A stretch of 64,000 nucleotides of DNA, taken from an uncultured Dehalococcoidia bacterium (GTDB lineage: Bacteria; Chloroflexota; Dehalococcoidia; Lucifugimonadales; UBA3495). The position numbers were made by a program, and so were the translations under genes. This document shows positions 8,062 through 38,434 of the stretch, one piece after another (position 1 is the first letter of the stretch; every line of letters starts with the position of its first letter). The notes beneath the pieces were generated by a model. That model was not told the DNA's origin, ran no database searches, and saw nothing but the letters and a program-made list of their open reading frames with translations. The DNA lies in contig OY282494.1 of assembly GCA_958296385.1 (NCBI GenBank), positions 415,416 through 479,415 on the forward strand. The letters are read 5' to 3'.

Positions 8062-8100
8062 TTCTTTTTCGGTTTCCCGCCGCCGCCCGCCCCGGCCGCG

Positions 8101-8559
8101 CTAAAGGTTAGCCTGGTATAGGTCGTATTCCGATTGCGCCATCCCCAGCGATTCGTAGGTCTGCTTGGCCACCGTGTTGTTGCCCATCACGTGCAGGCGC
8201 ATATACCGGACGTTGCCCTGCTGCGCCGCCATCTCCTGCAAGCGGCCGTACAGCCGCCGGTAGATCCCCCGCCGCCGGTAGCCCGCCTTGACGTACACCG
8301 ACTGTACCCACCAGATCCACCCGTCCCGCCAGTCCAGCCATTCGCAAGTAACCGTCAGATGGCCCACGGGCGCCCCGTCCGCCTCGGCAATCAGGTAAAA
8401 CGCCAGCGACGCATCGGCCAATGCCGCCCGCACCCCGGCTTTAACTACGGCCTCATCCAGCCTGACGTTCTCCGATTCCAGCGTCAGCGCCACGTTGAAC
8501 CCGGCGATGGCATCAGCGTCAGCGGCGTTGGCCGGCCGAATCGTTATTGCACTGCTCAT
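8101..8559 (-). CDS. GNAT-family N-acetyltransferase (paralog 1)
   Basis: It has the acetyl-CoA-binding core VYVKAGYRRRGIYRRLYGRLQEMAAQQG. The start was trimmed to ATG 8559 (MSSAITIRPANAADAD). Confidence 0.8.
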   Translation of the reverse strand: MSSAITIRPANAADADAIAGFNVALTLESENVRLDEAVVKAGVRAALADASLAFYLIAEADGAPVGHLTVTCEWLDWRDGWIWWVQSVYVKAGYRRRGIYRRLYGRLQEMAAQQGNVRYMRLHVMGNNTVAKQTYESLGMAQSEYDLYQANL

Positions 8560-8578
8560 ATCCGCTCTCAGACCGGCG

Positions 8579-9040
8579 CTAAAAATCCGTCTGGTAAAGG
8601 TCGTATTCCGAGTGCGCCATCCCCAGCGATTCGTAGGTTCGCTTGGCAACGGCGTTGTCCCGCATCACGTACAGCCGCATCCCCCGCACGTTCCCCTGCT
8701 GCGCCGCCATTTCCTGCAAGTGGCCGTACAGCCGCCGGTAAATCCCCCGCCGCCGGTAGCCCGCCTTGACGTACACCGACTGCACCCACCAGATCCACCC
8801 GTCCCGCCAGTCGCTCCACTCAAACGTAACCATCAGCTGCCCCACCGGCGCCCCGTCCGCCTCCGCAATCAGGTAAAACGCCAGCGACGCGTCCGCCAGC
8901 GCCGCCCGCACCCCGGCTTTCAGTACGTCCTGGTCCAGCGTAACGTCCTCCGATTCCAGCGCCATCACCGAGTTAAACTCAGCGATAGTATCAACGTCGG
9001 CGGCGTTAGCCGGGCGAATAGTTAGCGGGCTGTCGTTCAT
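8579..9040 (-). CDS. GNAT-family N-acetyltransferase (paralog 2)
   Basis: It is near-identical to paralog 1 across the central and C-terminal blocks. ATG 9040 (MNDSPLTIRPANAADVD) is preceded by a GAGGGGA-like RBS. Confidence 0.8.
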   Translation of the reverse strand: MNDSPLTIRPANAADVDTIAEFNSVMALESEDVTLDQDVLKAGVRAALADASLAFYLIAEADGAPVGQLMVTFEWSDWRDGWIWWVQSVYVKAGYRRRGIYRRLYGHLQEMAAQQGNVRGMRLYVMRDNAVAKRTYESLGMAHSEYDLYQTDF

Positions 9041-13928: not shown

Positions 13929-14336
13929 TCACGCCGGCCGCCACTTATAGACGACCCGTTCCGTTTCCGCGCCGCCGTCCATCGCTACGGCCTGGAGCGC
14001 CAGCGACACCGGCATACCAATCGTCAAATCCCCGTGCTCGCAGTCAATAACCTCGGCCAGCACGTGCGGCCCCTCCGGCAATTCCACTTCGCCCAGCACG
14101 TAAGGCACCGCCCCCGGCCAGCCCGCCGGCGGCACCCGCACGATGGTATAGCTGTACAAAACGCCCGCCGCCCCCAGCTCAACCTCCGCCAAATCCGGCG
14201 CAGTGCAAGACTGGCAAAAAGTAGCCGGCCCAAACACCACCACCCCGCATCCGGAGCAGCGCATCCCCAGCAAAACCCCGGCATCCCCACCCTCGCCGGT
14301 CAAACGGAGGCAGCGATCATCAACGGAAACAGGCAT
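13929..14336 (-). CDS. Zn-ribbon/OB-fold protein (DUF35 family, thiolase partner)
   Basis: A CSGCG...CQSC zinc ribbon is followed by an OB-like region (YSYTIVRV...VLGEVELPEGPHVLAEV). The start was trimmed to ATG 14336. Confidence 0.7.
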   Translation of the reverse strand: MPVSVDDRCLRLTGEGGDAGVLLGMRCSGCGVVVFGPATFCQSCTAPDLAEVELGAAGVLYSYTIVRVPPAGWPGAVPYVLGEVELPEGPHVLAEVIDCEHGDLTIGMPVSLALQAVAMDGGAETERVVYKWRPA

Positions 14337-14430
14337 AAACGACTCACCGGCGCAAAATTTGAAGGCCAGCCGGCACAACTGCCAAAAGTGTAAATCCCCG
14401 CCTTTGGGGTGTCAATTGACGCCCGCACCC

Positions 14431-14560
14431 CTAATGTCATCCGCACTCCCCCCAATGTCATTCTGAGCGTAGCGAAGAATCTCGATGGCGTAGCAGCGGC
14501 GTTGCCCCCAAAGTGTGCGCTGCCTCATCGAGATTCTTCGCTGCGCTCAGAATGACAGTA
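14431..14560. repeat. palindromic intergenic repeat, copy A
   Basis: AATGTCATTCTGAGCGTAGCGAAGAATCTCGA (from 14454) pairs with TCGAGATTCTTCGCTGCGCTCAGAATGACA (to 14557). It is preceded by the half-site CTAATGTCATCCGC. The same unit occurs at 19051 and 20650. Confidence 0.9.
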
Positions 14561-14695
14561 GGGCGGCCCCAAATAGACCGGGCCCAAAATAGCAGCTCTC
14601 TCTTGACCGTTCTCCGAATTGCGTGTTAGCGTGAGCGTACCGTCACGCCTCAAACCCCCGCCTCAACCCCCGTTGCATCGAATAGAGTTGTTGGT

Positions 14696-16333
14696 ATGGT
14701 CAATGTTCTCGGTTTAGACGCCCAACCCGGCCGCCGGTCGTGGGAGAAGTCCCTTGGCGAGTTCCTGCAAATCGTCACCGCCGCCAACCCGGATCGGGTA
14801 TTCGTAGAGATTGCCGGCCAGCAGGTCACTTACGGCCAGTTCATGTCCCGCTGTCGTGCGGCGGCAACGCTGTTCCAACGGTTAGGCATTGGCCACGGCG
14901 ACCGGGTCTGCATCTTTCTGCCCAACGTGCCCGAAGTCCTCTACACCTGGTTTGGCTTGTCGCTGATTGGCGCCATCACCGTCACCATCAACACCGCCTA
15001 CCGCCGCGACGAGATGGCGTTCATCCTGAACAACGCTGATGCCACGGCCCTGGTCGCCCACGAAACCCTGCTCGACGTAGCCACCCCCGCCGCCGACGTC
15101 GCCCCCTGCGTCCAGCACCGCCTCATCGTCGGCGATAGCTCCACTGCCGATGCCGCCGGCTGGCAATCCTACGCCGCCCTCCTCGCCGACGCACCCCCCC
15201 TTGCCGAGCTGCCCCCGGTGTCCCCCACCGACGTCGCCATGCTGCAATACACTTCCGGCACCACCGGCAACCCCAAGGGCGTAATGGTCACCCATCAGAT
15301 GTACGTTTCGGCCGGCCAGGGTTTCGCCCGCTGGACTGAGGCCACTGCCGACGACCGTTTCTTTACCTGCCTCCCCTACTTTCACGCCAACGCCCAGTAT
15401 TACAGCACCATGGGCACCCTGGCGGCCGGCGCAACGCTGGTGGTTCAAGACCGTTTCAGCGCCTCCCGTTTCTGGCAGCAGGTGCGGGACGCCCGCGCTA
15501 CCGTAGTCAATTTCATCGGCATGATGATGCCCGTCCTCGCCAAGAACGATCCGTCCCCCGACGACGCCGCTAACCCGGTGCGCCTGTTCTACGGTTCCCC
15601 GGCCTTTGCGCCGGAGTTCCTGGCCGACTTTGAGCAGCGGTTCGGCACCGATATTATCGTCGGCTTTGGCATGACCGAAACCTGCTACGGCACCATTGAG
15701 GACATCAAGGGCGAGCGCCGCCCCAACTCGTCGGGCCGCCCCCGCCAGCATCCCGACCCGGCCTTTGCCAACACCGTCCGCATCGTTGACGACGCCGGAC
15801 AGCCCGTCCCAAACGGCCAGCCCGGCGAAATCACCATCCTTAACCCCGCTACCATGCCCGGCTACTGGCGCAACCCGGAGCAGACCGCATTGTCCCTCCG
15901 CGACGGCTGGCTTTTCACCGGCGATTTGGGCTGGCTTGACGACGACGATTACCTCTATTTCGTCGACCGCAAAAAGGACGTCATCCGGCGCCGGGGCGAG
16001 AACATCTCATCCCAGGAAGTCGAGGACGTCATCAAGCGTCACCCGCGCGTTCTCGACTGCGCCATCATCGCCGTCCCCTCCGAGCTTGGCGAGGATGAGA
16101 TGAAAGCCTACGTCACCCCCCGCCCCGGCGAATCGGTGCAGCCCGCGGAAGTAGTGCATTGGTGCGCCGACCACCTGGCCTATTTCAAGGTTCCCCGCTA
16201 CATTGAGGTGCGGGATGAGCTGCCCCGCACCCCCAGCCTGCGCGTCCGCAAAGACGTGCTGCGCCAGGAACGCGCTGACCTCATTGCCGGCTGCTTTGAC
16301 CGGGAGGCCGCCGGCATCCCAATCCGCCGCTAA
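14696..16333 (+). CDS. AMP-dependent acyl-CoA synthetase/ligase
   Basis: It has the YTSGTTGNPKG AMP-binding motif, GFGMTE, and a C-terminal domain with YFVDRKKDVIRRRGENISSQEVE. Confidence 0.85.
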   Translation: MVNVLGLDAQPGRRSWEKSLGEFLQIVTAANPDRVFVEIAGQQVTYGQFMSRCRAAATLFQRLGIGHGDRVCIFLPNVPEVLYTWFGLSLIGAITVTINTAYRRDEMAFILNNADATALVAHETLLDVATPAADVAPCVQHRLIVGDSSTADAAGWQSYAALLADAPPLAELPPVSPTDVAMLQYTSGTTGNPKGVMVTHQMYVSAGQGFARWTEATADDRFFTCLPYFHANAQYYSTMGTLAAGATLVVQDRFSASRFWQQVRDARATVVNFIGMMMPVLAKNDPSPDDAANPVRLFYGSPAFAPEFLADFEQRFGTDIIVGFGMTETCYGTIEDIKGERRPNSSGRPRQHPDPAFANTVRIVDDAGQPVPNGQPGEITILNPATMPGYWRNPEQTALSLRDGWLFTGDLGWLDDDDYLYFVDRKKDVIRRRGENISSQEVEDVIKRHPRVLDCAIIAVPSELGEDEMKAYVTPRPGESVQPAEVVHWCADHLAYFKVPRYIEVRDELPRTPSLRVRKDVLRQERADLIAGCFDREAAGIPIRR

Positions 16334-17299: not shown

Positions 17300-18973
17300 T
17301 TACAGCGACCCGCTAATCGTTATATCCAGCAGCGCCGGTTTCCCGCTGGCAAACGCCCTTTGGATGGCCGGCCCGATTTCCGCGGGGTCGTCAACCCTTT
17401 CGCCGTGCACCCCCATCGCCTGCGCCATCAGCGACAGCTCCAGCCGGTTGGCAAAGTCCATCCCCACGTACTCCGAATCCCGCTCCCGGTCGTCCAGCAT
17501 ATCCCGCAGGTACACCTCCATGTTCACCTTCAGGATGCGGTACGCCTGGTTGTTGCAGATGGCATATACCACCGGAATGTTGTACCGGCTGGCCGTCCAC
17601 AGCGCCTGCACCGTGTACATTGACGCCCCATCCCCCACCACCGCCAGCACCGGCCGCTCCGGATGCGCCAGCTTGACCCCCAGCGCCCCCGGCATCGCCC
17701 ACCCCAGCGCACCGCCCCGTATGCCGTAGATGTCCCCCGCGTTCTTGAACTCAAAGGCCCGGTTCAGCGCCGGCCGCGAGGTAATCGACTCGTCTGCCAC
17801 GATAGTATCCGGCGGCACGGCGGCCGCCAGCTCGTGCATCATCCGCTCCACCGGCATCGGCTGATTGTCCCAGGTCGCCTTGATGCGTTCCTCATAGCGC
17901 GCGTCATCCCGCTGCCGGGCCGCGCCCAGCGTAGCGGCCCGCGTCGCGGCGGCCTCCCGCTGACTGCCGCTCAGCTCGGCGTCCAGCGCCTCGGCCAGGT
18001 CGGTCAGCCCCGCCGCCGGGTCTGCCAGGATGCCCACCTCGGTCGGGTACGTCTTTTCAATCTCCCAATAGTTGCTGTCCATATGAATCAGCCGCGCGTC
18101 CGGCTTGAGAAACGGCGTGTCCACGTACAGGAACGACGCAAACACGTCGGTGCCCACCGCCAGCACCACGTCGGCGTTCTCAAACTGGCGCGCCGTCGCC
18201 GGGCTGTTCAGGTTCAGCATCCCGCCCCACTGCGGATGCCCGGTTGGAAAGTTCACTTCCGAATAAGCCGTTGCCACCACCCGCGCCCCCGTCTGCTCCG
18301 CAACCCGCACCAGCGCGTCCACCGCCCCCGATTGCGCTATCCGGTCGCCCACCACGATTACCGGATGCTGCGCCGACGCCAGCAGCTCGGTAGCCGCCGC
18401 AATCGCCGCCGTGTCGGGCCGGATGCGGAAATACCCGGGCGACGACGCCGCAGCGTCAAACTCAATCTCCTCGTCCAGCGTATTCCACGGAAACGACACG
18501 AACACCGGCCCGGTTGGCGGCGTCTTGGCCTCTTTGAACGCCCGCCGGATTGCCACCGGAATATCCGACGCGTGCCGGATTTCAACACTCCACTTGGTGT
18601 ACTGCGCCGTCATCTCCACCAAGTCCCCCGACAGCACCGGCTCGCTAATCAGCATCCGCGTGTCCGAGTTGCCGGCCGTAAGCACCAGCGGCGTGCCGCC
18701 CCGGAAAGCGTTGTACAGCCCGCTGATGCCATTCGCCAGCCCGCCCGCAATATGAATGTTGGCAAAGGCCGGCTTGCCCGTAGCCCGCGCGTACCCGTCC
18801 GCCATCCCCACCGCCGTACCCTCCTGCAACGCCTGCACGTACCGCAGCTGCGGAAAATCCTGCAAACCGTCCAAAAACGGCGTCTCGCTGGTGCCAGGGT
18901 TCCCAAATATGTACTCAACCCCCTCCGCAACCAGCATCCGGGCCAAAGCGTGTTTCCCAAGCATCCTCGGCAT
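17300..18973 (-). CDS. thiamine-pyrophosphate-dependent enzyme (acetolactate synthase large subunit/benzoylformate decarboxylase-like)
   Basis: It has an N-terminal TPP-Pyr domain (GVEYIFGNPGTSETPFLD) and a C-terminal GDGASMYTVQALWTASRYNIPVVYAICNN TPP motif. ATG 18973 follows GGAGG; the TTG at 18985 in the track is less likely. Confidence 0.8.
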   Translation of the reverse strand: MPRMLGKHALARMLVAEGVEYIFGNPGTSETPFLDGLQDFPQLRYVQALQEGTAVGMADGYARATGKPAFANIHIAGGLANGISGLYNAFRGGTPLVLTAGNSDTRMLISEPVLSGDLVEMTAQYTKWSVEIRHASDIPVAIRRAFKEAKTPPTGPVFVSFPWNTLDEEIEFDAAASSPGYFRIRPDTAAIAAATELLASAQHPVIVVGDRIAQSGAVDALVRVAEQTGARVVATAYSEVNFPTGHPQWGGMLNLNSPATARQFENADVVLAVGTDVFASFLYVDTPFLKPDARLIHMDSNYWEIEKTYPTEVGILADPAAGLTDLAEALDAELSGSQREAAATRAATLGAARQRDDARYEERIKATWDNQPMPVERMMHELAAAVPPDTIVADESITSRPALNRAFEFKNAGDIYGIRGGALGWAMPGALGVKLAHPERPVLAVVGDGASMYTVQALWTASRYNIPVVYAICNNQAYRILKVNMEVYLRDMLDDRERDSEYVGMDFANRLELSLMAQAMGVHGERVDDPAEIGPAIQRAFASGKPALLDITISGSL

Positions 18974-19028: not shown

Positions 19029-19156
19029 GTTGTCATTCTACCCCCCCCCCAATGTCATTCTGAGCGCAGCGAAGAATCTCGATGGCGTAGCAGCGGCCTT
19101 GCCCCCAAAGTCTCCGCTGCCTCGTCGAGATTCTTCACTGCGCTCAGAATGACAAC
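19029..19156. repeat. palindromic intergenic repeat, copy B
   Basis: The left arm starts at 19051 (AATGTCATTCTGAGCGCAGCGAAGAATCTCGA) and the right arm ends at 19154. The apical segment is GCAGCGGCCTTGCCCCCAAAGTCTCCGCTGC. Confidence 0.9.
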
Positions 19157-19188: not shown

Positions 19189-19596
19189 CTACTGATACAC
19201 CATCCATTCCAGCAAGTTGTTGTCCGGGTCCCGCGCGTACAGGCTGACGGCCGGCAGCAGGCCCCGTTGCCGGGCCCCCTTGCGCGGCCCCGGCCCCCGC
19301 ACAATCTCCACCCCGGCATCGGCCAGCATCTGCTGGCAGTCCTCCACCGACCCGTCCCACACAAAGCAAATGTCCGTGCACCCCGGCACCGCCGTAGGCC
19401 CCCGGTAGTCGGCCATATACCCCTCCGGGTGCACGTTGATTTTGGAATCGCCCACCTGGATTGAGAATATGTTGGCCGTGCCGGCCCGCCATTCCGCCTC
19501 GTCGTTGATGGCAAACCCCAGCTTTTTGTAAAAGGCGATAATCCGCTCCGCATCAGCGGTCGGCATCGCGATATGGTCAATTCCTACGGTGGACAT
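19189..19596 (-). CDS. VOC-family (glyoxalase/bleomycin-resistance/dioxygenase) protein
   Basis: GIDHIAMPTADAERIIAFYKKLGF is a typical VOC beta-alpha-beta-beta-beta module. ATG 19596 follows GGAGAG. Confidence 0.7.
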   Translation of the reverse strand: MSTVGIDHIAMPTADAERIIAFYKKLGFAINDEAEWRAGTANIFSIQVGDSKINVHPEGYMADYRGPTAVPGCTDICFVWDGSVEDCQQMLADAGVEIVRGPGPRKGARQRGLLPAVSLYARDPDNNLLEWMVYQ

Positions 19597-19645
19597 AACA
19601 TTCTCTCCGTCGTTCAAGCTTTCGGTCGTTCAGATTATCTGATGT

Positions 19646-20515
19646 TCAGATTCGGGCCGCCGCCGTGTTGCTGCCGGCGCCGGCGCCGGCCGCCGCCGTG
19701 CTGCGCAAAAAGTCCAGGATGATGCGCTGCGTTTCGCCGGCGGCAGCATTAGTCATGAGCCCATGCTCGGCCCCCGCAATAATCCGCAGCTCCGATTGCG
19801 GTATCCCCTCCGACAGGCTGATGCCGCACTCCACCGGGATGCGGCTGTCCGCGTCCCCGTGCACCACCAGCGCCGGCATTTTCAGCTCCCCCAGCCGTTC
19901 CTCCAAAGAATCCCCGATGTCCACGTAGGCTTGCTGCGTAGCCGCAATTCCGTCAATGCGATGCAGATTCTCCCGTGCAATCCGCGCAAACCGTTCCGGC
20001 TCGTCGGCTTGCATATCAGGAAACCGTTCCGCAATCGCCCGCTCCGCCGCCGCCTCGCGCCCCTCCCCGGAGATTCGTTCCTTGAGCCGGCGCAATTCGG
20101 CTTGACGAATTTCCCGTTGCGCCGCCTGCGAGTACGTCATCGTATTAATCAGCAGCAGGCTGTCGGTCATATTGGGATACCGCAGCCCAAACTGCAAAGC
20201 GATTGGCCCCCCGGCCGACGACCCCAGCACGTGGGCCCGGCTGATGCCAACATAGTCCAGCAGCCCCTTAAGGTCCCGCGCGCAGTTCGGCATATCGTAC
20301 CCCACGTTAGGCGCGTCCGACTGCCCGCAGGCCCGCCGGTCGTAAAACACGCACCGATACTCCGCCGACAGCGCGTCAGCCTGCCGGTTAACCGTATCCC
20401 GGCAGCCATCGCCGCCCCCCAACCCCCCGTGAATCAAAACCAGCGCCGGCGCATCATCCGCCCCCAGCGCCTGATAGTGCATCCGAAACCCATTAATCTC
20501 AGCAAAAGCCATCAT
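19646..20515 (-). CDS. alpha/beta-fold hydrolase
   Basis: It has LIHGGLGG, a GSSAGG nucleophile elbow, and a C-terminal HGDADSRIP...GAEHG. Confidence 0.75.
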   Translation of the reverse strand: MMAFAEINGFRMHYQALGADDAPALVLIHGGLGGGDGCRDTVNRQADALSAEYRCVFYDRRACGQSDAPNVGYDMPNCARDLKGLLDYVGISRAHVLGSSAGGPIALQFGLRYPNMTDSLLLINTMTYSQAAQREIRQAELRRLKERISGEGREAAAERAIAERFPDMQADEPERFARIARENLHRIDGIAATQQAYVDIGDSLEERLGELKMPALVVHGDADSRIPVECGISLSEGIPQSELRIIAGAEHGLMTNAAAGETQRIILDFLRSTAAAGAGAGSNTAAARI

Positions 20516-20590: not shown

Positions 20591-20805
20591 GGCAGCGTTC
20601 CGTTTTAGGCGGTTTAGTTTCCCTAATGTCATTCCGCCCCTCTCCCCCCAATGTCATTCTGAGCGCAGCGAAGAATCTCGAAAGCGTAGCAACGGCGTTA
20701 CCCTCAAAGTGTGCCCTACGTCATCGAGATTCTTCGCTGCGCTCAGAACGACATTCGGAATGGCCGGCGGTGGGCTGATTAAACCACCTAAAACGCAACG
20801 CTGCC
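20591..20805. repeat. palindromic intergenic repeat, copy C, nested inside a second outer inverted repeat
   Basis: The inner hairpin spans 20650-20753. The outer arms are GGCAGCGTTCCGTTTTAGGCGGTTTAG (20591-20617) and TTAAACCACCTAAAACGCAACGCTGCC (20779-20805), complementary at 24 of 27 positions. Confidence 0.85.
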
Positions 20806-20877
20806 GCCGGCGTAACGGGCCTACCCCCAAACGCCGGTATGCTAAAATACCCATCCAATACCGGACTGACTGCCGCC

Positions 20878-22074
20878 ATGACCACCCAGGGCCACATATA
20901 CTTTGACCACGCCGGCACCACCCCCATGGAGCCCCGCGTCCTGGAGGCCATGCTCCCCTACTTTACCCGGCTCTACGGCAACGCCTCCAGCGTGCACACC
21001 GTAGGCCAGGAAGCCCGCTACGCTCTTGACGGCGCGCGGGAGCGGGTGGCCCAAGTGCTCAACTGCCGCAACCGCGAAATTGTGTTCACCAGCGGCGGCA
21101 CCGAGTCCGACAACGCCGCCATCCAGGGCGCCGCCATCGCCCTGGAGGAAACCGGACGCCACGTCGTCACCGCCAGCACCGAGCATCACGCCGTACTCCA
21201 CACCTGCCAGGTCTTGGAGAATCGCGGCTGGGAGGTAACCTACCTGCCCGTTGACGACTACGGCATGGTCACCCCCCAGGCCGTTCACAACGCCATCACC
21301 GCCGAAACCGCCCTGGTGTCGATAATGTACGCCAACAACGAAATCGGCACCATCAACCCCATCGCCGACATCGCCGCCGCCGTCCAGGCCCGCCGCCAGG
21401 AACTGAACCGCACCATCGTAATGCACACCGACGCGGTACAGGCCGCCGGCTTTCTCGACCTTGACGTGCGCCGCCTCGGGGTCGATATGATGAGCCTCTC
21501 CGGCCACAAGTTCTACGGCCCCAAGGGCGTTGGCGTGCTGTTCCTGCGGCGCGGCGTCCCCTACCTCCCCCTGATTACCGGCGGCGGCCAGGAGCGCGAG
21601 CGCCGCTCCGGTACGGAGAACGTCGCCGGCATCGTCGGCCTCTCCGTCGCCCTGCAAATCGCCGACGACAACCGCCAGTCGGTCAGCGCCCACTGCCGCG
21701 CTTTACGAGATTACATAATTGACGAAATCACCCGCCGCGTACCCGATTGCGTCCTGAACGGACACCCCACGGAGCGCCTGCCCAACAACGTCAACATCTC
21801 CATCGCCGGCGTTGACGGCGAACCCATCCTGCTCGGCCTGGACTTGCAGGGCATCGCCGCCAGCAGCGGCAGCGCGTGCAGCAGCGGTTCCCTGGAACCG
21901 TCCCACGTCCTGCTCGCCCTGGGCCAAACCGCCGAAACCGCCCGCGGCTCCCTCCGCATCACCCTCGGCAAAGACAACACCCAAGCCGAAGTTGACCGGA
22001 TGCTGCCCGCCCTGATCGGCATCATCAGCGACTTGCGCGCTCTCCCATCCCTAACCGGAACCGCCCATGACTAA
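20878..22074 (+). CDS. cysteine desulfurase (NifS/IscS class V aminotransferase)
   Basis: It has [10 protein letters not shown], the PLP-lysine motif [12 protein letters not shown], and the active-site loop SSGSACSSG. Confidence 0.85.
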
Positions 22075-23437: not shown

Positions 23438-24787
23438 TCACCCGGCCCCCCCGTCGTACTCCCGCACCGCCGCCTGCTGCCGCTGAAAGTTCAGATACGC
23501 CCCACGCGTCATCGCCGGACGGAATGACGACACCACTTGCCGCCCTTTCGCCCCCCCGTCGGCCAACAGGTCAATAACCGACATCGCCATTATTTTCGCC
23601 GGATTCACCACCGCCTGCTGGTAGTCGGTAATCAGATACTCGTTGCTGTGCCCCGCCCCCTGCGCCCCGCCGGTGTAAGGATGCACCGACGGCAGAATAT
23701 GGCTCAAATCCCCCATATCCGTTGACCCGCCCCGATTACGCGCTGGCGGCATCACCAGCACCCGGTTCTCGTTCAGCAGGTTCACCGAGTTTTGCCGGAA
23801 CAGATCCAGCAAGTGCTGGTCGTGGCGCATCGGCAAATAGCCGGGTATGTTAGTAATTGACACCGACGCCCCCACCGCCAGCGCCCCGGCCCGGAAGCAC
23901 CGATCCACAATCTCCGAGTTCCGCACCACCGCCTCCGGCGTCCCCGAGCGCACCCGCCATTCCAGCTTCACGTCCGACGGCACCGAGTTCACCGACTGCC
24001 CGCCCGCCGTCATTATCCCGTGTATCCGCACGGTATCCTGCTCCCGGTACAGCTCCCGGTTCGAGTTGATGGCCTGCAACGCAAAAGTCGCCGCGTTCAG
24101 CGCGTTAACCCCCAGATGCGGCGCGCTGCCGGCGTGCGCCGCCCGCCCGGTAAAGCGAACGTACTTCACGATATGCCCGTTGCTCGTGCCGCCCAGCGCA
24201 AAAGTGTGCGCCCCCATGTCGCTGGCGGTGTGGCACATCATCGCAATGTCCACGTCGTCAAACTCCCCCAGCCGAATCAGCTCCTGCTTCCCCCCCATAA
24301 ACTCAATCTGCCCGCTTTCCCGCAGCCCCAGCCGCCGCTCCACTTCAATAAACTCCTCGGCCGGCACCGCAAACGGCACAATCTCCCCGCTCAATTCCGC
24401 CAGCACCCGGGGCTGCGTCAGCCCCACCAGCGCCCCCAGCATCATCCCAATCTGGCAATGATGCCCGCAGGCGTGGGCCGCGTTGGTATCCGCCGCCGCG
24501 CTGGGATGCCCGTCCACAATCAGGCTGTCCAGCTCCCCGATGATTGCCACGCTCGGCCCCTTGCCCCCGCCCCCTTGCACCGCCCCTTTCACCCCGGTCA
24601 GCGCCAGCCCGGAGCGGTACTTGATGCCCAGCCTGGCCAGCTGCTCACCCACCACCCGCGCCGTCCGGTATTCGCTGTATCCCGGCTCCGGATGCTCCAG
24701 TATGTCCCGGGAAACCGCAATCAGTTCCTTGGCCCGGCGGTCAATTGCCTTGCAAGCGGCGGCTTTCAGTTCTGCTCGTGTTGCCAT
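23438..24787 (-). CDS. M20D-type amidohydrolase (paralog 1)
   Basis: Motifs HPEPGYSEYRTA, AHACGHHCQIGMMLGA and GRAAHAGSAPHLGVNALNA are present. The start was trimmed to ATG 24787 (MATRAELKAAACKAID). Confidence 0.8.
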   Translation of the reverse strand: MATRAELKAAACKAIDRRAKELIAVSRDILEHPEPGYSEYRTARVVGEQLARLGIKYRSGLALTGVKGAVQGGGGKGPSVAIIGELDSLIVDGHPSAAADTNAAHACGHHCQIGMMLGALVGLTQPRVLAELSGEIVPFAVPAEEFIEVERRLGLRESGQIEFMGGKQELIRLGEFDDVDIAMMCHTASDMGAHTFALGGTSNGHIVKYVRFTGRAAHAGSAPHLGVNALNAATFALQAINSNRELYREQDTVRIHGIMTAGGQSVNSVPSDVKLEWRVRSGTPEAVVRNSEIVDRCFRAGALAVGASVSITNIPGYLPMRHDQHLLDLFRQNSVNLLNENRVLVMPPARNRGGSTDMGDLSHILPSVHPYTGGAQGAGHSNEYLITDYQQAVVNPAKIMAMSVIDLLADGGAKGRQVVSSFRPAMTRGAYLNFQRQQAAVREYDGGAG

Positions 24788-24854: not shown

Positions 24855-26186
24855 TTAAACGTCGGCGTAGGTAATTTCGCTGGCCAGCCCGCGCATAAAC
24901 TCAATGTACTCGCGCGCGGTCATTTCCGCCCGGTGATTGGCAATCACCCGTCGCCCCTCGGCGGCGCCGTCCGCCAGCAGGTCAATCACCGTCGCCGCCA
25001 TCGACTTGGCGGCGGTAATCACCGCCAGCTGATAATCCTGCACCACGTAATCCGCGCCGTGTCCAATGCCCGTTGCGCCCCCCACGTAAGGATGGATAAC
25101 CGGCATCAGATAGCTAACGTCGCCCATGTCCGTGCTGCCCGTCCGGTGCTGGATGCGCGCCACGTTCTCCGGCCCCACCAGCGTATTGGCGTTGGCCTCA
25201 AAGATTTCCGCCATCCGCCCGTTCTGCATCAGCGGCAGGTAGCCGGGTATGGTCTGGATGTTCACCGTCGCCCCCATCGCCATCGCACCCGCCCGCAGCG
25301 CCCGGTCCACCTTGTGATTGGCGTCCATAATCGCGTCCAGCGTGCGCCCCCGCACAAACGTCTCCATCCGCACGTCCGCCGGCACCGCGCTAACCGCCTC
25401 GCCGCCTTTCGTGATGATGGGATGCACCCGCACCGTGTCGTTGTCCAGAAACGTCTCCCGGTTGAAGTGAATCGCCGACAGCGCCAGCGTTGCCGCGTTC
25501 AGCGCGTTGATTCCCAGATGCGGCGACCCCCCGGCGTGAGCGCCCCGCCCCACAAACTGGATTTTCTTGGCCAGCGTCCCGTTGCTGGTCCCGCTGACGC
25601 ACAGCTGCCGTTCCCCCGGCGTGCTGGTCGTATGCACCATCATTGACAGATGCACGTCGTCAAACTCGCCCAGCCGGATGAACTCCGGCTTGCCCCCCAG
25701 AAACTCAATCTTGCCCGCCCGTCGCAGCCCGTCCCGGTACTCAATCTCGATATATTCCTCCGCCGGCATCCCCATCGGCACAATCCGCCCGCTCAGGTTA
25801 GGCAGCACGTCCTTGTGCATCAGCCCCATCGTCGCCCCCAGCATCATCCCAATCTGGCAATGATGCCCGCAAGCGTGGGCCGCCCCCGTCTCCCCGTTGG
25901 CGTGCGGATGCTCGTTGACAATCAGGCTGTCCAGCTCCCCGATAATCGCCATCGTCGGCCCTTCGCTGCCCCCCAGAATCTCCCCCCGCAGCCCGGTCAT
26001 CCCGAGGCCGCTGCGAAACGGCACCCCCATCTCCGCAAACTTCTCCCCCACCAGCGCCGCCGTCTTAAACTCCCGGAACCCCGGTTCCGGATTGGCCAGA
26101 ATCTGCTTTGACAGATTAATCAGTTCGTCGGCCCGCTGGTCAATCTCCGCAAAAGCCTTGTCTTTCAATTCAACGGCAGTAGGCAT
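24855..26186 (-). CDS. M20D-type amidohydrolase (paralog 2)
   Basis: It is colinear with paralog 1 (NPEPGFREFKTA, AHACGHHCQIGMMLGA, GRGAHAGGSPHLGINALNA). Confidence 0.8.
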   Translation of the reverse strand: MPTAVELKDKAFAEIDQRADELINLSKQILANPEPGFREFKTAALVGEKFAEMGVPFRSGLGMTGLRGEILGGSEGPTMAIIGELDSLIVNEHPHANGETGAAHACGHHCQIGMMLGATMGLMHKDVLPNLSGRIVPMGMPAEEYIEIEYRDGLRRAGKIEFLGGKPEFIRLGEFDDVHLSMMVHTTSTPGERQLCVSGTSNGTLAKKIQFVGRGAHAGGSPHLGINALNAATLALSAIHFNRETFLDNDTVRVHPIITKGGEAVSAVPADVRMETFVRGRTLDAIMDANHKVDRALRAGAMAMGATVNIQTIPGYLPLMQNGRMAEIFEANANTLVGPENVARIQHRTGSTDMGDVSYLMPVIHPYVGGATGIGHGADYVVQDYQLAVITAAKSMAATVIDLLADGAAEGRRVIANHRAEMTAREYIEFMRGLASEITYADV

Positions 26187-26343
26187 CCCAAATCTCCGGC
26201 TGGACTATCGTCTGATTGATGGATCGTCTGATTGACGGCTCGTTATTTGACGGCTTGCCATCGGCTGGTTGTCAACATAACACCCCACCCAACGCCCCCC
26301 CGATGGTAGCACACCCCACCCCCCTTGCCTACCAAACCCACCC

Positions 26344-26460
26344 AATGCCATTCTGATCACCGCGCAGAACCCCAACGCCGCCGCAGCCCCCTTGCCCCCA
26401 AAGACACACCGAGGGGGTCTGGGGGAAATCATTTCCCCCAGCGTCCCCCCCTTACTCCCC
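26344..26460. repeat. variant intergenic repeat, copy D (diverged left arm plus GGGGGAAATCATTTCCCCC hairpin module)
   Basis: AATGCCATTCTGATCAC...GCAGCCCCCTTGCCCCCAAAG is followed by ACACACCGAGGGGGTCTGGGGGAAATCATTTCCCCCAGCGTC (hairpin at 26419-26441). This module is nearly identical to 38361-38405. Confidence 0.8.
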
Positions 26461-34114: not shown

Positions 34115-34211
34115 TGGCGGGAGTGCGAGGGAGTCGAACCCACCTACCCCGCTCGTCACGAGGCATAACGGATTTGAAGTCCGCAAGAGCCACCGGGCCC
34201 CATCCACTCCC
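34115..34211 (-). tRNA. selC: tRNA-Sec (anticodon UCA), CCA encoded
   Basis: The minus-strand sequence is GGGAGTGG-AT-GGGGCC-CGGT-GGCTCT-T-GCGGA-CTTCAAA-TCCGT-(long variable arm)-GTGGG-TTCGACT-CCCTC-GCACTCCC-G-CCA. It has an 8/5 acceptor/T architecture and a 6-bp D stem with a 4-nt loop. The anticodon loop, T loop and D loop are identical to E. coli selC as I recall it. One G-G and one T-T mismatch are noted. Confidence 0.85.
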
Positions 34212-38300: not shown

Positions 38301-38434
38301 TGGCGTTCCGTTTCGGGTGATTTAATTTCCCTAATGTCATCTGAGCGCCCTTGCCCCCAAAGACACAACGAGGGGGTCTGGGGGAAATCATTTCCCCCAG
38401 CGTCACCCCCCTTGCCTCAAAAATACGCCGCCCC
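38301..38434. repeat. variant intergenic repeat, copy E (outer-arm fragment, truncated left arm, hairpin module)
   Basis: GCGTTCCGTTTCGGGTGATTTAATTTCCCTAATGTCAT matches the outer and left part of copy C. CCTTGCCCCCAAAGACACAACGAGGGGGTCTGGGGGAAATCATTTCCCCCAGCGTC matches copy D (hairpin at 38378-38400). Confidence 0.8.

What the first reader, a model, noticed from the sequence alone, without database searches (positions are those of the whole stretch)
14454..14557. Family of about 105-nt near-perfect palindromic intergenic elements (three canonical copies)
Canonical copies lie at 14454-14557, 19051-19154 and 20650-20753. Each has a 29-nt arm, AATGTCATTCTGAGCGCAGCGAAGAATCTCGA, pairing with TCGAGATTCTTCGCTGCGCTCAGAATGACA. 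The arms surround an inner helix (GCAGCGG/CCGCTGC in copy B) and an apical CCTTGCCCCCAAAG loop. All three are preceded by a half-site (CTAATGTCAT(T)CCGC or TTGTCATTCTA) and a C-run. Counting the two variant copies (26344, 38301), 4 of 5 elements sit in divergent promoter regions between back-to-back genes, and none is inside a gene. They generate spurious ORFs in the track (peptides such as QCHSERSEESR). I recall arms of this kind being widespread in metagenomic bacteria, but I cannot name a characterised function. REP/MITE-like behaviour, transcription attenuation, or protein binding are all possible.
Basis: partly seen in the sequence, partly recalled or inferred. Interest (0 to 1): 0.6.

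Follow-up and report, generated by a model that had tools for sequence, protein, structure and literature searches.

The report
Ssn-type hairpin DNA repeat pairs
The three palindromes belong to about 100 copies of a selfish-looking DNA repeat: two inverted copies of a tagged hairpin that is found across bacterial phyla and is the known target of small Ssn single-strand DNA nucleases. This genome has a recent burst of an unusual variant and no Ssn gene, which makes it a new variant of a known kind.

Summary
The three copies are real, and the 3.3-Mb genome (a SAR202-type Dehalococcoidia) holds about 100 full copies plus about 50 half or decayed ones. 99 of 100 lie between genes.

Each arm is a TGTC-headed hairpin, TGTC-ATTCT-GA-GCGNAGC-GA-AGAAT-CTCGA, whose tip is the very stable GCGNAGC DNA mini-hairpin. 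Across phyla the arm keeps its own stem through paired changes, so the arm is the selected unit, not the long palindrome.

In relatives, hairpins of this build flank small GIY-YIG (Ssn-type) nuclease genes with heads outward. One Gracilibacteria locus uses the identical arm. The family is therefore a variant of the Ssn-related motifs (SRM), also described as CGTC/TGTC-tagged REPs. It is not a RAYT REP, and no RNA family matched.

Unusual points:
- The arm fails the published SRM search pattern.
- It is absent or nearly so from 24 sister species, which mostly carry the canonical type.
- This genome has no single-domain Ssn gene.
- Arms are 10-20 times better conserved than the spacer.
- 29 of the 87 oriented copies, including copy C, lie beside the ends of an IS256-like miniature transposon with 9-bp target duplications.

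There is no preference for divergent promoters and no orientation relative to genes. How the copies spread is inferred, not shown.

The parts
14450..14563 (+). Copy A: full head-outward hairpin dimer. It lies between a ChsH2-like OB-fold gene (13929-14378, -) and an acyl-CoA ligase gene (14696-16333, +).
   Evidence: (I4: 45-nt arms, 87% complementary). The orthologous gap in two close relatives holds a TTGC-variant dimer, and a third relative has no dimer there.
14457..14483 (+). Copy A, left arm core (TGTC-headed hairpin with GCGTAGC tip)
   Evidence: 1 mismatch to the consensus
14530..14556 (-). Copy A, right arm core
   Evidence: 0 mismatches
14430..14449 (+). Partial unit 5' of copy A: head plus truncated stem plus C-run (CCTAATGTCATCCGCACTCC)
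19048..19154 (+). Copy B: full dimer between the TPP-enzyme gene (17300-18937, -) and the glyoxalase gene (19189-19617, -). This is a tandem context.
   Evidence: (I2). This gap is about 100-190 nt shorter and lacks the element in 9 aligned congeners.
19054..19080 (+). Copy B, left arm core
   Evidence: 0 mismatches
19127..19153 (-). Copy B, right arm core
   Evidence: 1 mismatch
19030..19047 (+). Partial unit 5' of copy B (TTGTCATTCTA plus C-run)
20646..20758 (+). Copy C: full dimer nested inside a miniature transposon, between a hydrolase gene (19646-20515, -) and an aminotransferase gene (20839-22074, +)
   Evidence: (I6)
20653..20679 (+). Copy C, left arm core
   Evidence: 0 mismatches
20726..20752 (-). 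Copy C, right arm core
   Evidence: 1 mismatch
20622..20645 (+). Partial unit 5' of copy C (CCTAATGTCATTCCGCCCCTCTCC)
20591..20805 (.). 215-bp IS256/MULE-like miniature transposon (ends GGCAGCGTTCCGTTTTAGGCGG...) that carries copy C
   Evidence: 27 such end pairs under 1.2 kb apart, 18 of them carrying a dimer, 9 with exact 9-bp target duplications. This copy has a degenerate 6/9 duplication. A 1075-bp copy holds a transposase remnant with sub-threshold MULE and Transposase_mut matches.
26341..26403 (+).
   Evidence: D14
26411..26443 (+). Unit of a different 75-copy repeat family, GAGGGGGTCTGGGGGAAATCATTTCCCCCAGCG, fused to the half element
38329..38369 (+).
   Evidence: D14
38370..38402 (+). 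Second copy in the window of the 75-copy repeat family

Best explanation
**What it is.** Each element is a head-outward inverted pair of one tagged hairpin, joined by a conserved 46-nt spacer that has its own small hairpin. The arm reads 5'-TGTC / ATTCT GA GC-GNA-GC GA AGAAT / CTCGA. As single-stranded DNA it should form a 9-step stem: five Watson-Crick pairs, two tandem G.A pairs and two G-C pairs, capped by a GNA triloop. That tip is the GCGNAGC 'mini-hairpin DNA' motif.

**What family.** It is a sequence variant of the Ssn-related motifs (SRM; the NTS of Neisseria), also described as CGTC/TGTC-tagged REPs. Small GIY-YIG Ssn nucleases bind these hairpins only as ssDNA and cut a few bases 5' of the head.

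**What is shown here.**
- The anatomy of the element.
- About 100 copies limited to this species.
- Strict avoidance of genes.
- No polarity relative to transcription.
- Arms far better conserved than the spacer.
- Paired (compensatory) changes inside the arm across phyla.
- Hairpins of the same build flanking ssn genes in relatives.
- A subset of copies carried inside an IS256-like miniature transposon that makes 9-bp target duplications.

**What is inferred.**
- The family multiplied as DNA through a single-stranded stage, using an Ssn-type or other hairpin-specific enzyme acting in trans. That enzyme has since been lost, or is not recognisable in this genome.
- The repeats are mainly selfish or neutral passengers.
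- The short head-only units 5' of the arms are by-products of cutting, copying or slippage at the stable hairpin.
For: **Copy number and limits.**
- 122 + 117 arms in the genome and 100 full elements of 99-101 nt.
- The arm is absent at up to 2 mismatches from 23 of 24 congeners.
- The site of copy B lacks the element in 9 congeners.

**The arm is the constrained unit.**
- Mismatch to the consensus is 0.7-1.5% in the arms against 6-14% in the spacer.
- Across 120 loci from many phyla, the arm's own stem changes in pairs: ATTCT/AGAAT, ATCCT/AGGAT, ACCCT/AGGGT, ATTCC/GGAAT, and inner GC/GC to AC/GT. 39 of 45 non-ATTCT stems are fully paired.
- GCGNAGC is an exceptionally stable DNA hairpin, with Tm 70-76 C (PMC13037366).

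**Link to Ssn.**
- Most of 12 small (87-117 aa) GIY-YIG genes fetched from relatives are flanked, heads outward, by GTCAT-headed hairpins.
- Among them are TGTCATTGCGAGCGAAGCGCGGCAATCTCGA in congener G002 and TGTCATTCTGAG...GAAGAATC in G029.
- A Gracilibacteria ssn gene has the identical arm 113 nt upstream and a variant arm downstream.
- Published properties of NTS/SRM and Ssn are in PMC11893778. CGTC/TGTC REPs and their dimers with conserved spacers are in PMC3733652.

**DNA-level behaviour.**
- 99 of 100 copies are intergenic, with context classes as expected from intergenic length (p = 0.76) and orientation 20 same to 28 opposite relative to genes.
- There is no Rfam match.

**Hitch-hiking.** Outer ends with exact 9-bp target duplications occur in 9 composite copies. 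Composite copies are more alike, 89.6% against 83.6%.
Against: - This genome has no single-domain Ssn gene. The only GIY-YIG genes are UvrC, a 293-aa zinc-ribbon-HRDC-GIY-YIG protein, a 179-aa zinc-ribbon-GIY-YIG-membrane protein and a weak 105-aa frame. None is flanked by arms.
- The arm does not match the published degenerate SRM search pattern. The genome gives 19 pattern hits against about 26 expected by chance.
- No insertion or excision event was seen at base resolution, because the closest available relatives are too diverged in intergenic DNA.
- No enzyme activity was tested.
- The strong conservation of the arms without a cognate Ssn is unexplained. It could mean a different partner or a host function.
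- Copies were picked by arm similarity, which biases arm conservation upward. Even so, most arms have 0-1 mismatches where 4 were allowed.
Confidence: 0.75

Rival explanations
1. All copies are ordinary miniature inverted-repeat transposons (MITEs) moved by a DDE transposase that recognises the long terminal inverted repeats as double-stranded DNA.
For: The element has long, near-perfect inverted ends and high copy number. 29 of the 87 oriented copies lie next to ends of an IS256/MULE-like transposon that makes 9-bp target duplications.
Against: Copies outside the outer transposon show no target duplication (inspection of 87 junctions). The conserved unit across phyla is the short hairpin inside each arm, which changes by paired substitutions. 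In other genomes the two arms often differ from each other. The duplications belong to the outer ends, not to the palindrome.
Confidence: 0.07
2. The elements act mainly as RNA: terminators, mRNA-stabilising 3' hairpins, or processing sites, as proposed for some REPs.
For: The predicted RNA hairpin is very stable (-92 kcal/mol for the 116-nt consensus). Many copies lie about 60-70 nt from gene ends. Di Nocera et al. argue that many REPs are transcribed.
Against: There is no orientation relative to flanking genes (20 to 28), and a quarter of copies sit between divergent genes. There is no T-tail and no Rfam hit. The tip motif GCGNAGC is described as a DNA mini-hairpin. Ssn does not bind RNA. 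The family is missing from 23 of 24 sister species, which have the same neighbouring genes at site B.
Confidence: 0.08
3. They are classical REP/REPIN elements mobilised by a RAYT (Y1 HUH) transposase.
For: The architecture resembles REPINs: inverted pairs of tagged hairpins about 100 nt long, intergenic, without target duplications.
Against: The genome has no Y1_Tnp (PF01797) match, while the control genomes did match. The tag is TGTC, not GTAG. No gene between closely spaced elements is a nuclease or transposase.
Confidence: 0.02
4. They are host-used single-strand or cruciform DNA signals, for example priming or SSB-free sites on the lagging strand, or binding sites for a nucleoid or repair protein. 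In that case they are kept by selection rather than by selfish spread.
For: Arms are 10-20 times better conserved than the spacer although there is no Ssn gene. GCGNAGC mini-hairpins mark primase sites at phage G4-type origins. A post hoc split of the chromosome gives a bipolar orientation pattern, 35:8 against 16:28.
Against: Sister species lack this arm entirely, so no conserved host function depends on it. The orientation bias is not significant when the origin is placed independently, at dnaA (p = 0.66) or by gene-strand skew (p = 0.08).
Confidence: 0.08

Closest known systems
Ssn-related motifs (SRM), including the Neisseria NTS (CGTCATTCCCGCGMAVGCGGGAATCYRG), with SsnA GIY-YIG ssDNA nucleases (Chenal et al. 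2025, PMC11893778)
   Same: - Same head (Y)GTCATT and foot (G)AATC around a short hairpin with a GNA- or GNNA-type tip.
- Tens to hundreds of copies per genome, almost never inside genes.
- Hairpins of this build, including the identical arm in a Gracilibacteria genome, flank ssn genes with heads outward.
   Different: - The stem is ATTCT-GA-GC with tandem G.A pairs, and the arm fails the published degenerate SRM pattern.
- The genome has no single-domain ssn gene.
- Copies are homodimers with one conserved, structured 46-nt spacer.
- Cutting by an Ssn was not tested.
CGTC/TGTC-tagged REP superfamily (Di Nocera, De Gregorio and Rocco 2013, PMC3733652)
   Same: - Terminal TGTC tag.
- Stem of about 9 steps that starts with A-T and T-A.
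- Mostly arranged as inverted dimers with a conserved spacer able to fold into a large hairpin.
- No dedicated transposase.
   Different: - The loop is 3 nt (GNA) rather than 4-5 nt.
- The tail is CTC(GA), not CCA.
- The host is a Dehalococcoidia (Chloroflexota), a group the sections I read do not name as a CGTC host; they say only that most CGTC repeats are in alpha-Proteobacteria.
REPIN-RAYT systems of Pseudomonas and enterobacteria
   Same: Inverted doublets of tagged hairpins about 100 nt long, intergenic, with no target duplication. They are thought to move as ssDNA with an enzyme supplied in trans.
   Different: The tag is GTAG and the enzyme is a Y1 HUH transposase. Neither is present here.
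Mini-hairpin DNA GCGNAGC / GCGNNAGC (Hirao and colleagues; review PMC13037366)
   Same: The tip of every arm is GCG(C/T)AGC. The canonical SRMs of sister species carry GCGAAAGC.
   Different: The motif was described as a biophysical feature at phage origins and promoters, not as part of genomic repeat families. A search of that review for 'Ssn' found nothing.

Membership tests
Ssn-related motif (SRM/NTS) | Short imperfect-palindrome hairpin with a conserved non-palindromic 5' head (C/T)GTCAT that gives it a direction | tested here: met
   TGTCATTC head, hairpin and AATCTCGA foot are conserved in about 250 arms.
Ssn-related motif (SRM/NTS) | Matches the published degenerate search sequence HGTCWYN(0-2)YYVSBRHN(0-5)WNVSBRGN(0-2)RNCYNB | tested here: not met
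   the arm does not match. The genome has 19 pattern hits against about 26 expected. The arm type that flanks ssn in congener G002 also fails the pattern.
Ssn-related motif (SRM/NTS) | Flanks an ssn (single-domain GIY-YIG, about 95 aa) gene on both sides, and a genome rich in the motif usually has ssn | tested here: not met
   Own genome: no such gene. The feature is met for the same build of arm in relatives (L140, L131) and for the identical arm in L021. Motif-rich genomes without ssn are common in this genus: 10 of 24, including G006 with 713 canonical motifs.
Ssn-related motif (SRM/NTS) | Many copies, nearly all outside genes | tested here: met
   100 full copies, 99 of them intergenic.
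Ssn-related motif (SRM/NTS) | Bound and cut as ssDNA, on one strand only, a few bases 5' of the head by its Ssn | not testable with these tools
   Needs purified protein and oligonucleotides.
CGTC/TGTC-tagged REP | Terminal CGTC or TGTC tag, with a stem of 8-9 pairs beginning with A-T and T-A | tested here: met
   TGTC followed by ATTCTGAGC/GCGAAGAAT, 9 steps counting two G.A pairs.
CGTC/TGTC-tagged REP | Loop of 4-5 nt and a 3-nt CCA-type tail | tested here: not met
   The loop is GNA (3 nt) and the tail is CTC (definition).
CGTC/TGTC-tagged REP | Mostly inverted dimers with conserved spacers | tested here: met
   100 dimers against about 54 solo arms, most of which are decayed dimers.
REP/REPIN-RAYT | GTAG tag and a RAYT (Y1_Tnp) gene in the genome | tested here: not met
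   no PF01797 match in the genome. The tag is TGTC.
DDE-transposon MITE | Terminal inverted repeats bounded by a fixed-length target-site duplication | tested here: not met
   Not met for the palindrome itself: no duplication at 87 junction pairs. Met only for the outer IS256-like element that carries some copies.
Known structured RNA (Rfam) | Match to a curated covariance model | tested here: not met
   only chance-level miRNA hits (E 0.4-0.8).

The most novel reading that the evidence does not exclude
The arms are kept almost invariant (about 1% divergence against 6-14% in the spacer) in a genome that has no Ssn gene. Ssn-less genomes with hundreds of such hairpins are also common in this genus. 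The repeats may therefore be recognised, and perhaps copied, by a different ssDNA-hairpin enzyme. Candidates in this genome are the zinc-ribbon-HRDC-GIY-YIG protein and the zinc-ribbon-GIY-YIG-membrane protein. The head-only units stacked in register 5' of the arms are seen here, in congeners and in a CPR genome. They would then be footprints of a copy-and-insert step at the cut site just 5' of an existing head. That would be the first direct clue to how this pan-bacterial repeat class multiplies.
Probability: 0.15. Interest if true: 0.7.

Novelty: new variant of a known kind. Interest (0 to 1): 0.4.

Why it matters
The Ssn/SRM pairing was described only in 2025, and how the hairpins multiply is still open. 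This genome offers a clean natural case with several useful features:
- A species-specific burst of about 100 near-identical dimers of an arm type that the published search pattern misses.
- No cognate nuclease gene.
- Sister species that carry 0-713 copies of the canonical type, with or without ssn.
- Capture of the dimer by a conventional miniature transposon.
- Arrays of head-only units that may record the copying step.

It also ties the repeat class to the GCGNAGC mini-hairpin, which gives a physical reason for the extreme cross-phylum conservation of the loop.

Practically, these repeats create spurious ORFs (peptides such as ...CHSERSEES... and ...LRCAQND...). They can also be mistaken for candidate regulatory RNAs in metagenome annotation.

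Tried and rejected
**Families tested and not found.**
- RAYT/Y1 transposase: none in the genome.
- 23S rRNA intervening-sequence (four-helix-bundle) protein, which I recalled as a possible partner: none.
- Rfam at gathering and at E-value thresholds: nothing.

**Searches for a linked gene.**
- A recurrent neighbour gene across 120 foreign loci holding the arm: none. The largest cluster was response regulators, in 5 loci.
- A gene framed by two solo arms at gene-scale distance: none.
- Genes between closely spaced elements: all ordinary metabolic genes by their sequence; I did not scan them against Pfam.
- Arms next to the multi-domain GIY-YIG genes of this genome: none.

**Tests of bias.**
- Replication-strand bias of the spacer orientation: not significant with the origin at dnaA (p = 0.66) or by gene-strand skew (p = 0.08). 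Only a post hoc split is significant.
- GC skew is too noisy to place the origin.

**Limits met.**
- Base-level empty-site comparison: the relatives are too diverged in intergenic DNA to define ends.
- Literature searches for the arm or its peptide read-outs found nothing relevant.
- The supplementary tables of the Ssn paper are not held.

Full report
**Observation.**
- The 27-nt arm core GTCATTCTGAGCGCAGCGAAGAATCTC occurs six times in the window at up to 3 mismatches and never in 100 shuffles.
- The palindromes extend outward to CCCCAAT...ATTGGGG.
- The two 'variant copies' near 26344 and 38301 are degenerate left halves fused to a different repeat, GAGGGGGTCTGGGGGAAATCATTTCCCCCAGCG, which has 75 copies of its own in the genome.

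**Genome-wide picture.** The window lies in a complete 3.30-Mb, 63.5% G+C genome. Titles of the closest loci place it among SAR202-type Dehalococcoidia.
- It holds 127 forward and 122 reverse arms at up to 4 mismatches. There are 100 full elements with an arm-to-arm length of 99-101 nt and about 54 solo arms, most of which are visibly decayed or truncated dimers.
- The spacer, CGTAGCAACGGCGTTGCCCCCAAAGTGTGCGCTACG, is asymmetric and gives each copy an orientation: 51 plus, 36 minus, 13 undecided.
- With a home-made gene caller (2818 calls, 84% coding; window calls checked against Pfam), 99 of 100 elements are intergenic.
- The split is 59 tandem, 25 divergent and 15 convergent. That equals the share of intergenic base pairs in each class (chi-square p = 0.76). 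Orientation relative to flanking co-directional genes is 20 same to 28 opposite.
- So the divergent-promoter impression from the window does not generalise, and nothing ties the element to the direction of transcription.
- In the window itself, A and C are in divergent gaps and B is in a tandem gap.

**Anatomy.**
- The arm contains its own hairpin, ATTCT-GA-GC-GNA-GC-GA-AGAAT, behind a TGTC head and before a CTCGA foot.
- Its tip, GCG(C/T)AGC, is the GCGNAGC 'mini-hairpin DNA' motif: two G-C pairs and a sheared G.A pair, with Tm 70-76 C (PMC13037366).
- The exact 25-mer GTCATTCTGAGCGNAGCGAAGAATC is present in genomes of at least a dozen phyla.
- In those genomes the partner arm is often not the reverse complement of the first. 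It is a variant that keeps its own internal pairing.
- Counting all hairpins of this build in the 120 foreign loci gives outer stems ATTCT/AGAAT (156), ATCCT/AGGAT (21), ACCCT/AGGGT (7), ATTCC/GGAAT (3), ATTTC/GAAAT (2) and ACTCT/AGAGT (2). Inner pairs are GC/GC (176), AC/GT (17) and GT/AC (4). 39 of 45 non-ATTCT stems are fully paired.
- The selected structure is therefore the short hairpin of each arm. The long palindrome follows from pairing two arms.

**What family.**
- No RAYT/Y1 transposase is encoded and no Rfam family matches.
- Chenal et al. (PMC11893778) showed three things. NTS/SRM hairpins (CGTCATTCCCGCGMAVGCGGGAATCYRG and relatives) flank ssnA genes. SsnA is a 94-aa single-domain GIY-YIG enzyme. 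It binds the hairpin only as ssDNA, on one strand, and cuts upstream of the head.
- Di Nocera et al. (PMC3733652) had described the same repeats as CGTC/TGTC-tagged REPs, mostly arranged as inverted dimers with conserved spacers and without a dedicated transposase.
- A six-frame GIY-YIG search of 40 relatives found many small genes of this kind.
- I fetched twelve of them. Most are flanked by GTCAT-headed hairpins with heads outward.
- Most of those hairpins are the canonical CGTCATTCCGGCGAAAGCCGGAATCCAG type. Congener G002 has TGTCATTGCGAGCGAAGCGCGGCAATCTCGA, and G029 (same order) has TGTCATTCTGAG...GAAGAATC.
- Among the 120 cross-phylum loci, one (Gracilibacteria) encodes an Ssn homologue (HMM E = 3e-35). 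The identical arm sits 113 nt upstream and a variant arm sits downstream.
- This places the element in the SRM / tagged-REP superfamily by architecture and by association in relatives.

**Where it departs from the family.**
- The arm fails the published degenerate SRM pattern. The whole genome gives 19 pattern hits against about 26 expected.
- The loop is 3 nt and the tail is CTC, not the 4-5 nt loop and CCA tail of the CGTC REP definition.
- This genome has no single-domain Ssn. It has only UvrC, a 293-aa zinc-ribbon-HRDC-GIY-YIG protein, a 179-aa zinc-ribbon-GIY-YIG-membrane protein and a weak 105-aa frame. None has arms nearby.
- The arm is absent at up to 2 mismatches from 23 of 24 congeners.
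- 22 of those 24 congeners carry 8-713 copies of the canonical SRM, of which this genome has none.
- Ssn-less but SRM-rich genomes are frequent in the genus: 10 of 24 by my reading, including the richest, G006. Orphan status is therefore not exceptional. It suggests that ssn genes come and go while the hairpins persist.

**History at individual sites.**
- The gap holding copy B lacks this element in nine aligned congeners and is about 100-190 nt shorter. Those gaps hold a plain terminator-like hairpin or a canonical SRM instead.
- The gap holding copy A carries a TTGC-variant dimer with a recognisably related spacer in the two closest relatives, and no dimer in a third.
- The same gaps are thus colonised repeatedly by different flavours. 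Intergenic divergence prevents base-level definition of the ends.

**Two ways of spreading.**
- 29 of the 87 oriented copies lie next to ends of another element, GGTAGCGTTCCGTTTTAGGTGGTTTA..., and 18 short (under 1.2 kb) end pairs enclose a full dimer.
- That element has exact 9-bp target duplications in nine cases. A 1075-bp member encodes a transposase remnant with sub-threshold MULE and Transposase_mut matches.
- Copy C sits in such a 215-bp unit (20591-20805).
- Composite copies are more alike than the rest, 89.6% against 83.6%. This fits a recent transposase-driven burst.
- The other copies have no duplications.

**Constraint.** Divergence from the consensus is 0.7-1.5% in the arms and 6-14% in the spacer. 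Selecting copies by arm similarity biases this figure, but most arms have 0-1 mismatches where 4 were allowed. Something recognises the arms, or did so very recently.

**Head-only units.**
- The genome has 140 extra TGTCATTC heads, against about 43 TGTCATTC sites of any kind expected from base composition.
- 46 of them lie within 150 nt 5' of a full arm on the same strand, most often 26-30 nt away.
- Similar arrays sit next to SRMs in congeners (seven 27-nt units in L130, 25-nt units in L140, 37-nt units in L146) and in the Gracilibacteria locus.
- I infer slippage, or aborted copying, at the stable hairpin or at the Ssn cut site. This is not shown.

**Rivals.** A pure DDE-MITE origin, an RNA function, RAYT mobilisation and a host ssDNA-signal role are each addressed in the Rival explanations section. 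None fits as well. A bipolar orientation pattern along the chromosome appears only with a post hoc split.

**Limits.** No enzyme was tested.

**Verdict.** This is a real repeat family of a known kind (Ssn-type tagged hairpins) in a new sequence variant, with an orphan, species-specific expansion. Interest is moderate.

Noticed in passing
window 34119-34211 (-): A selenocysteine tRNA gene (Rfam tRNA-Sec, 66.4 bits, E 2e-11).
   Followed up: no
window 26411-26443 and 38370-38402; 75 copies in the genome: A separate repeat family, GAGGGGGTCTGGGGGAAATCATTTCCCCCAGCG (its own hairpin GGGGGAAAT/ATTTCCCCC). It is often followed by CCGTCAAAATCCCCCGCCAAATCCAAAAATCA (28 copies) and is sometimes fused to the left half of the Ssn-type element.
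   Followed up: partly
window 20591-20805; genome C1:3178197-3179271: An IS256/MULE-like transposon family with ends GGTAGCGTTCCGTTTTAGGTGGTTTA (102 ends in the genome) and 9-bp target duplications. Most members are 180-230-bp miniature forms. One 1075-bp copy keeps a 223-aa transposase remnant.
   Followed up: yes
genome C1:3231176-3232057: A 293-aa protein that combines an N-terminal zinc ribbon, an HRDC domain (E 5e-20) and a C-terminal GIY-YIG domain closer to Ssn-type than to UvrC (34.7 against 8.9 bits on my Ssn profile). Frames of similar size occur in about 8 of 41 relatives.
   Followed up: partly
relatives G001-G024: Canonical SRM hairpins (GTCATTCCGGCGAAAGCCGGAATC, up to 3 mismatches) range from 0 to 713 copies among species of one genus. 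The richest genome, G006, shows no small GIY-YIG gene, so hairpin load and ssn presence are only loosely coupled.
   Followed up: partly
L130 (G019), L140 (G002), L146, L021: Tandem arrays of head-only half-hairpin units (periods of 25, 27 and 37 nt, up to 7 units) sit directly 5' of complete Ssn-type hairpins, in Chloroflexota and in a Gracilibacteria genome alike.
   Followed up: partly
window 8098-8397 and 8576-8875: A 300-nt direct repeat at 87% identity, spaced 478 nt apart (D1).
   Followed up: no
window 23438-24787 and 24855-26186: Two adjacent minus-strand genes are paralogues: repeat families D4, D13 and D15, register 1402 nt, 73-81% identity.
   Followed up: no
genome-wide: The spacer orientation of the elements looks bipolar along the chromosome (35:8 against 16:28 for a split at about 0.75 and 2.4 Mb). 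This is a post hoc split. With independently placed origins the bias is not significant.
   Followed up: yes
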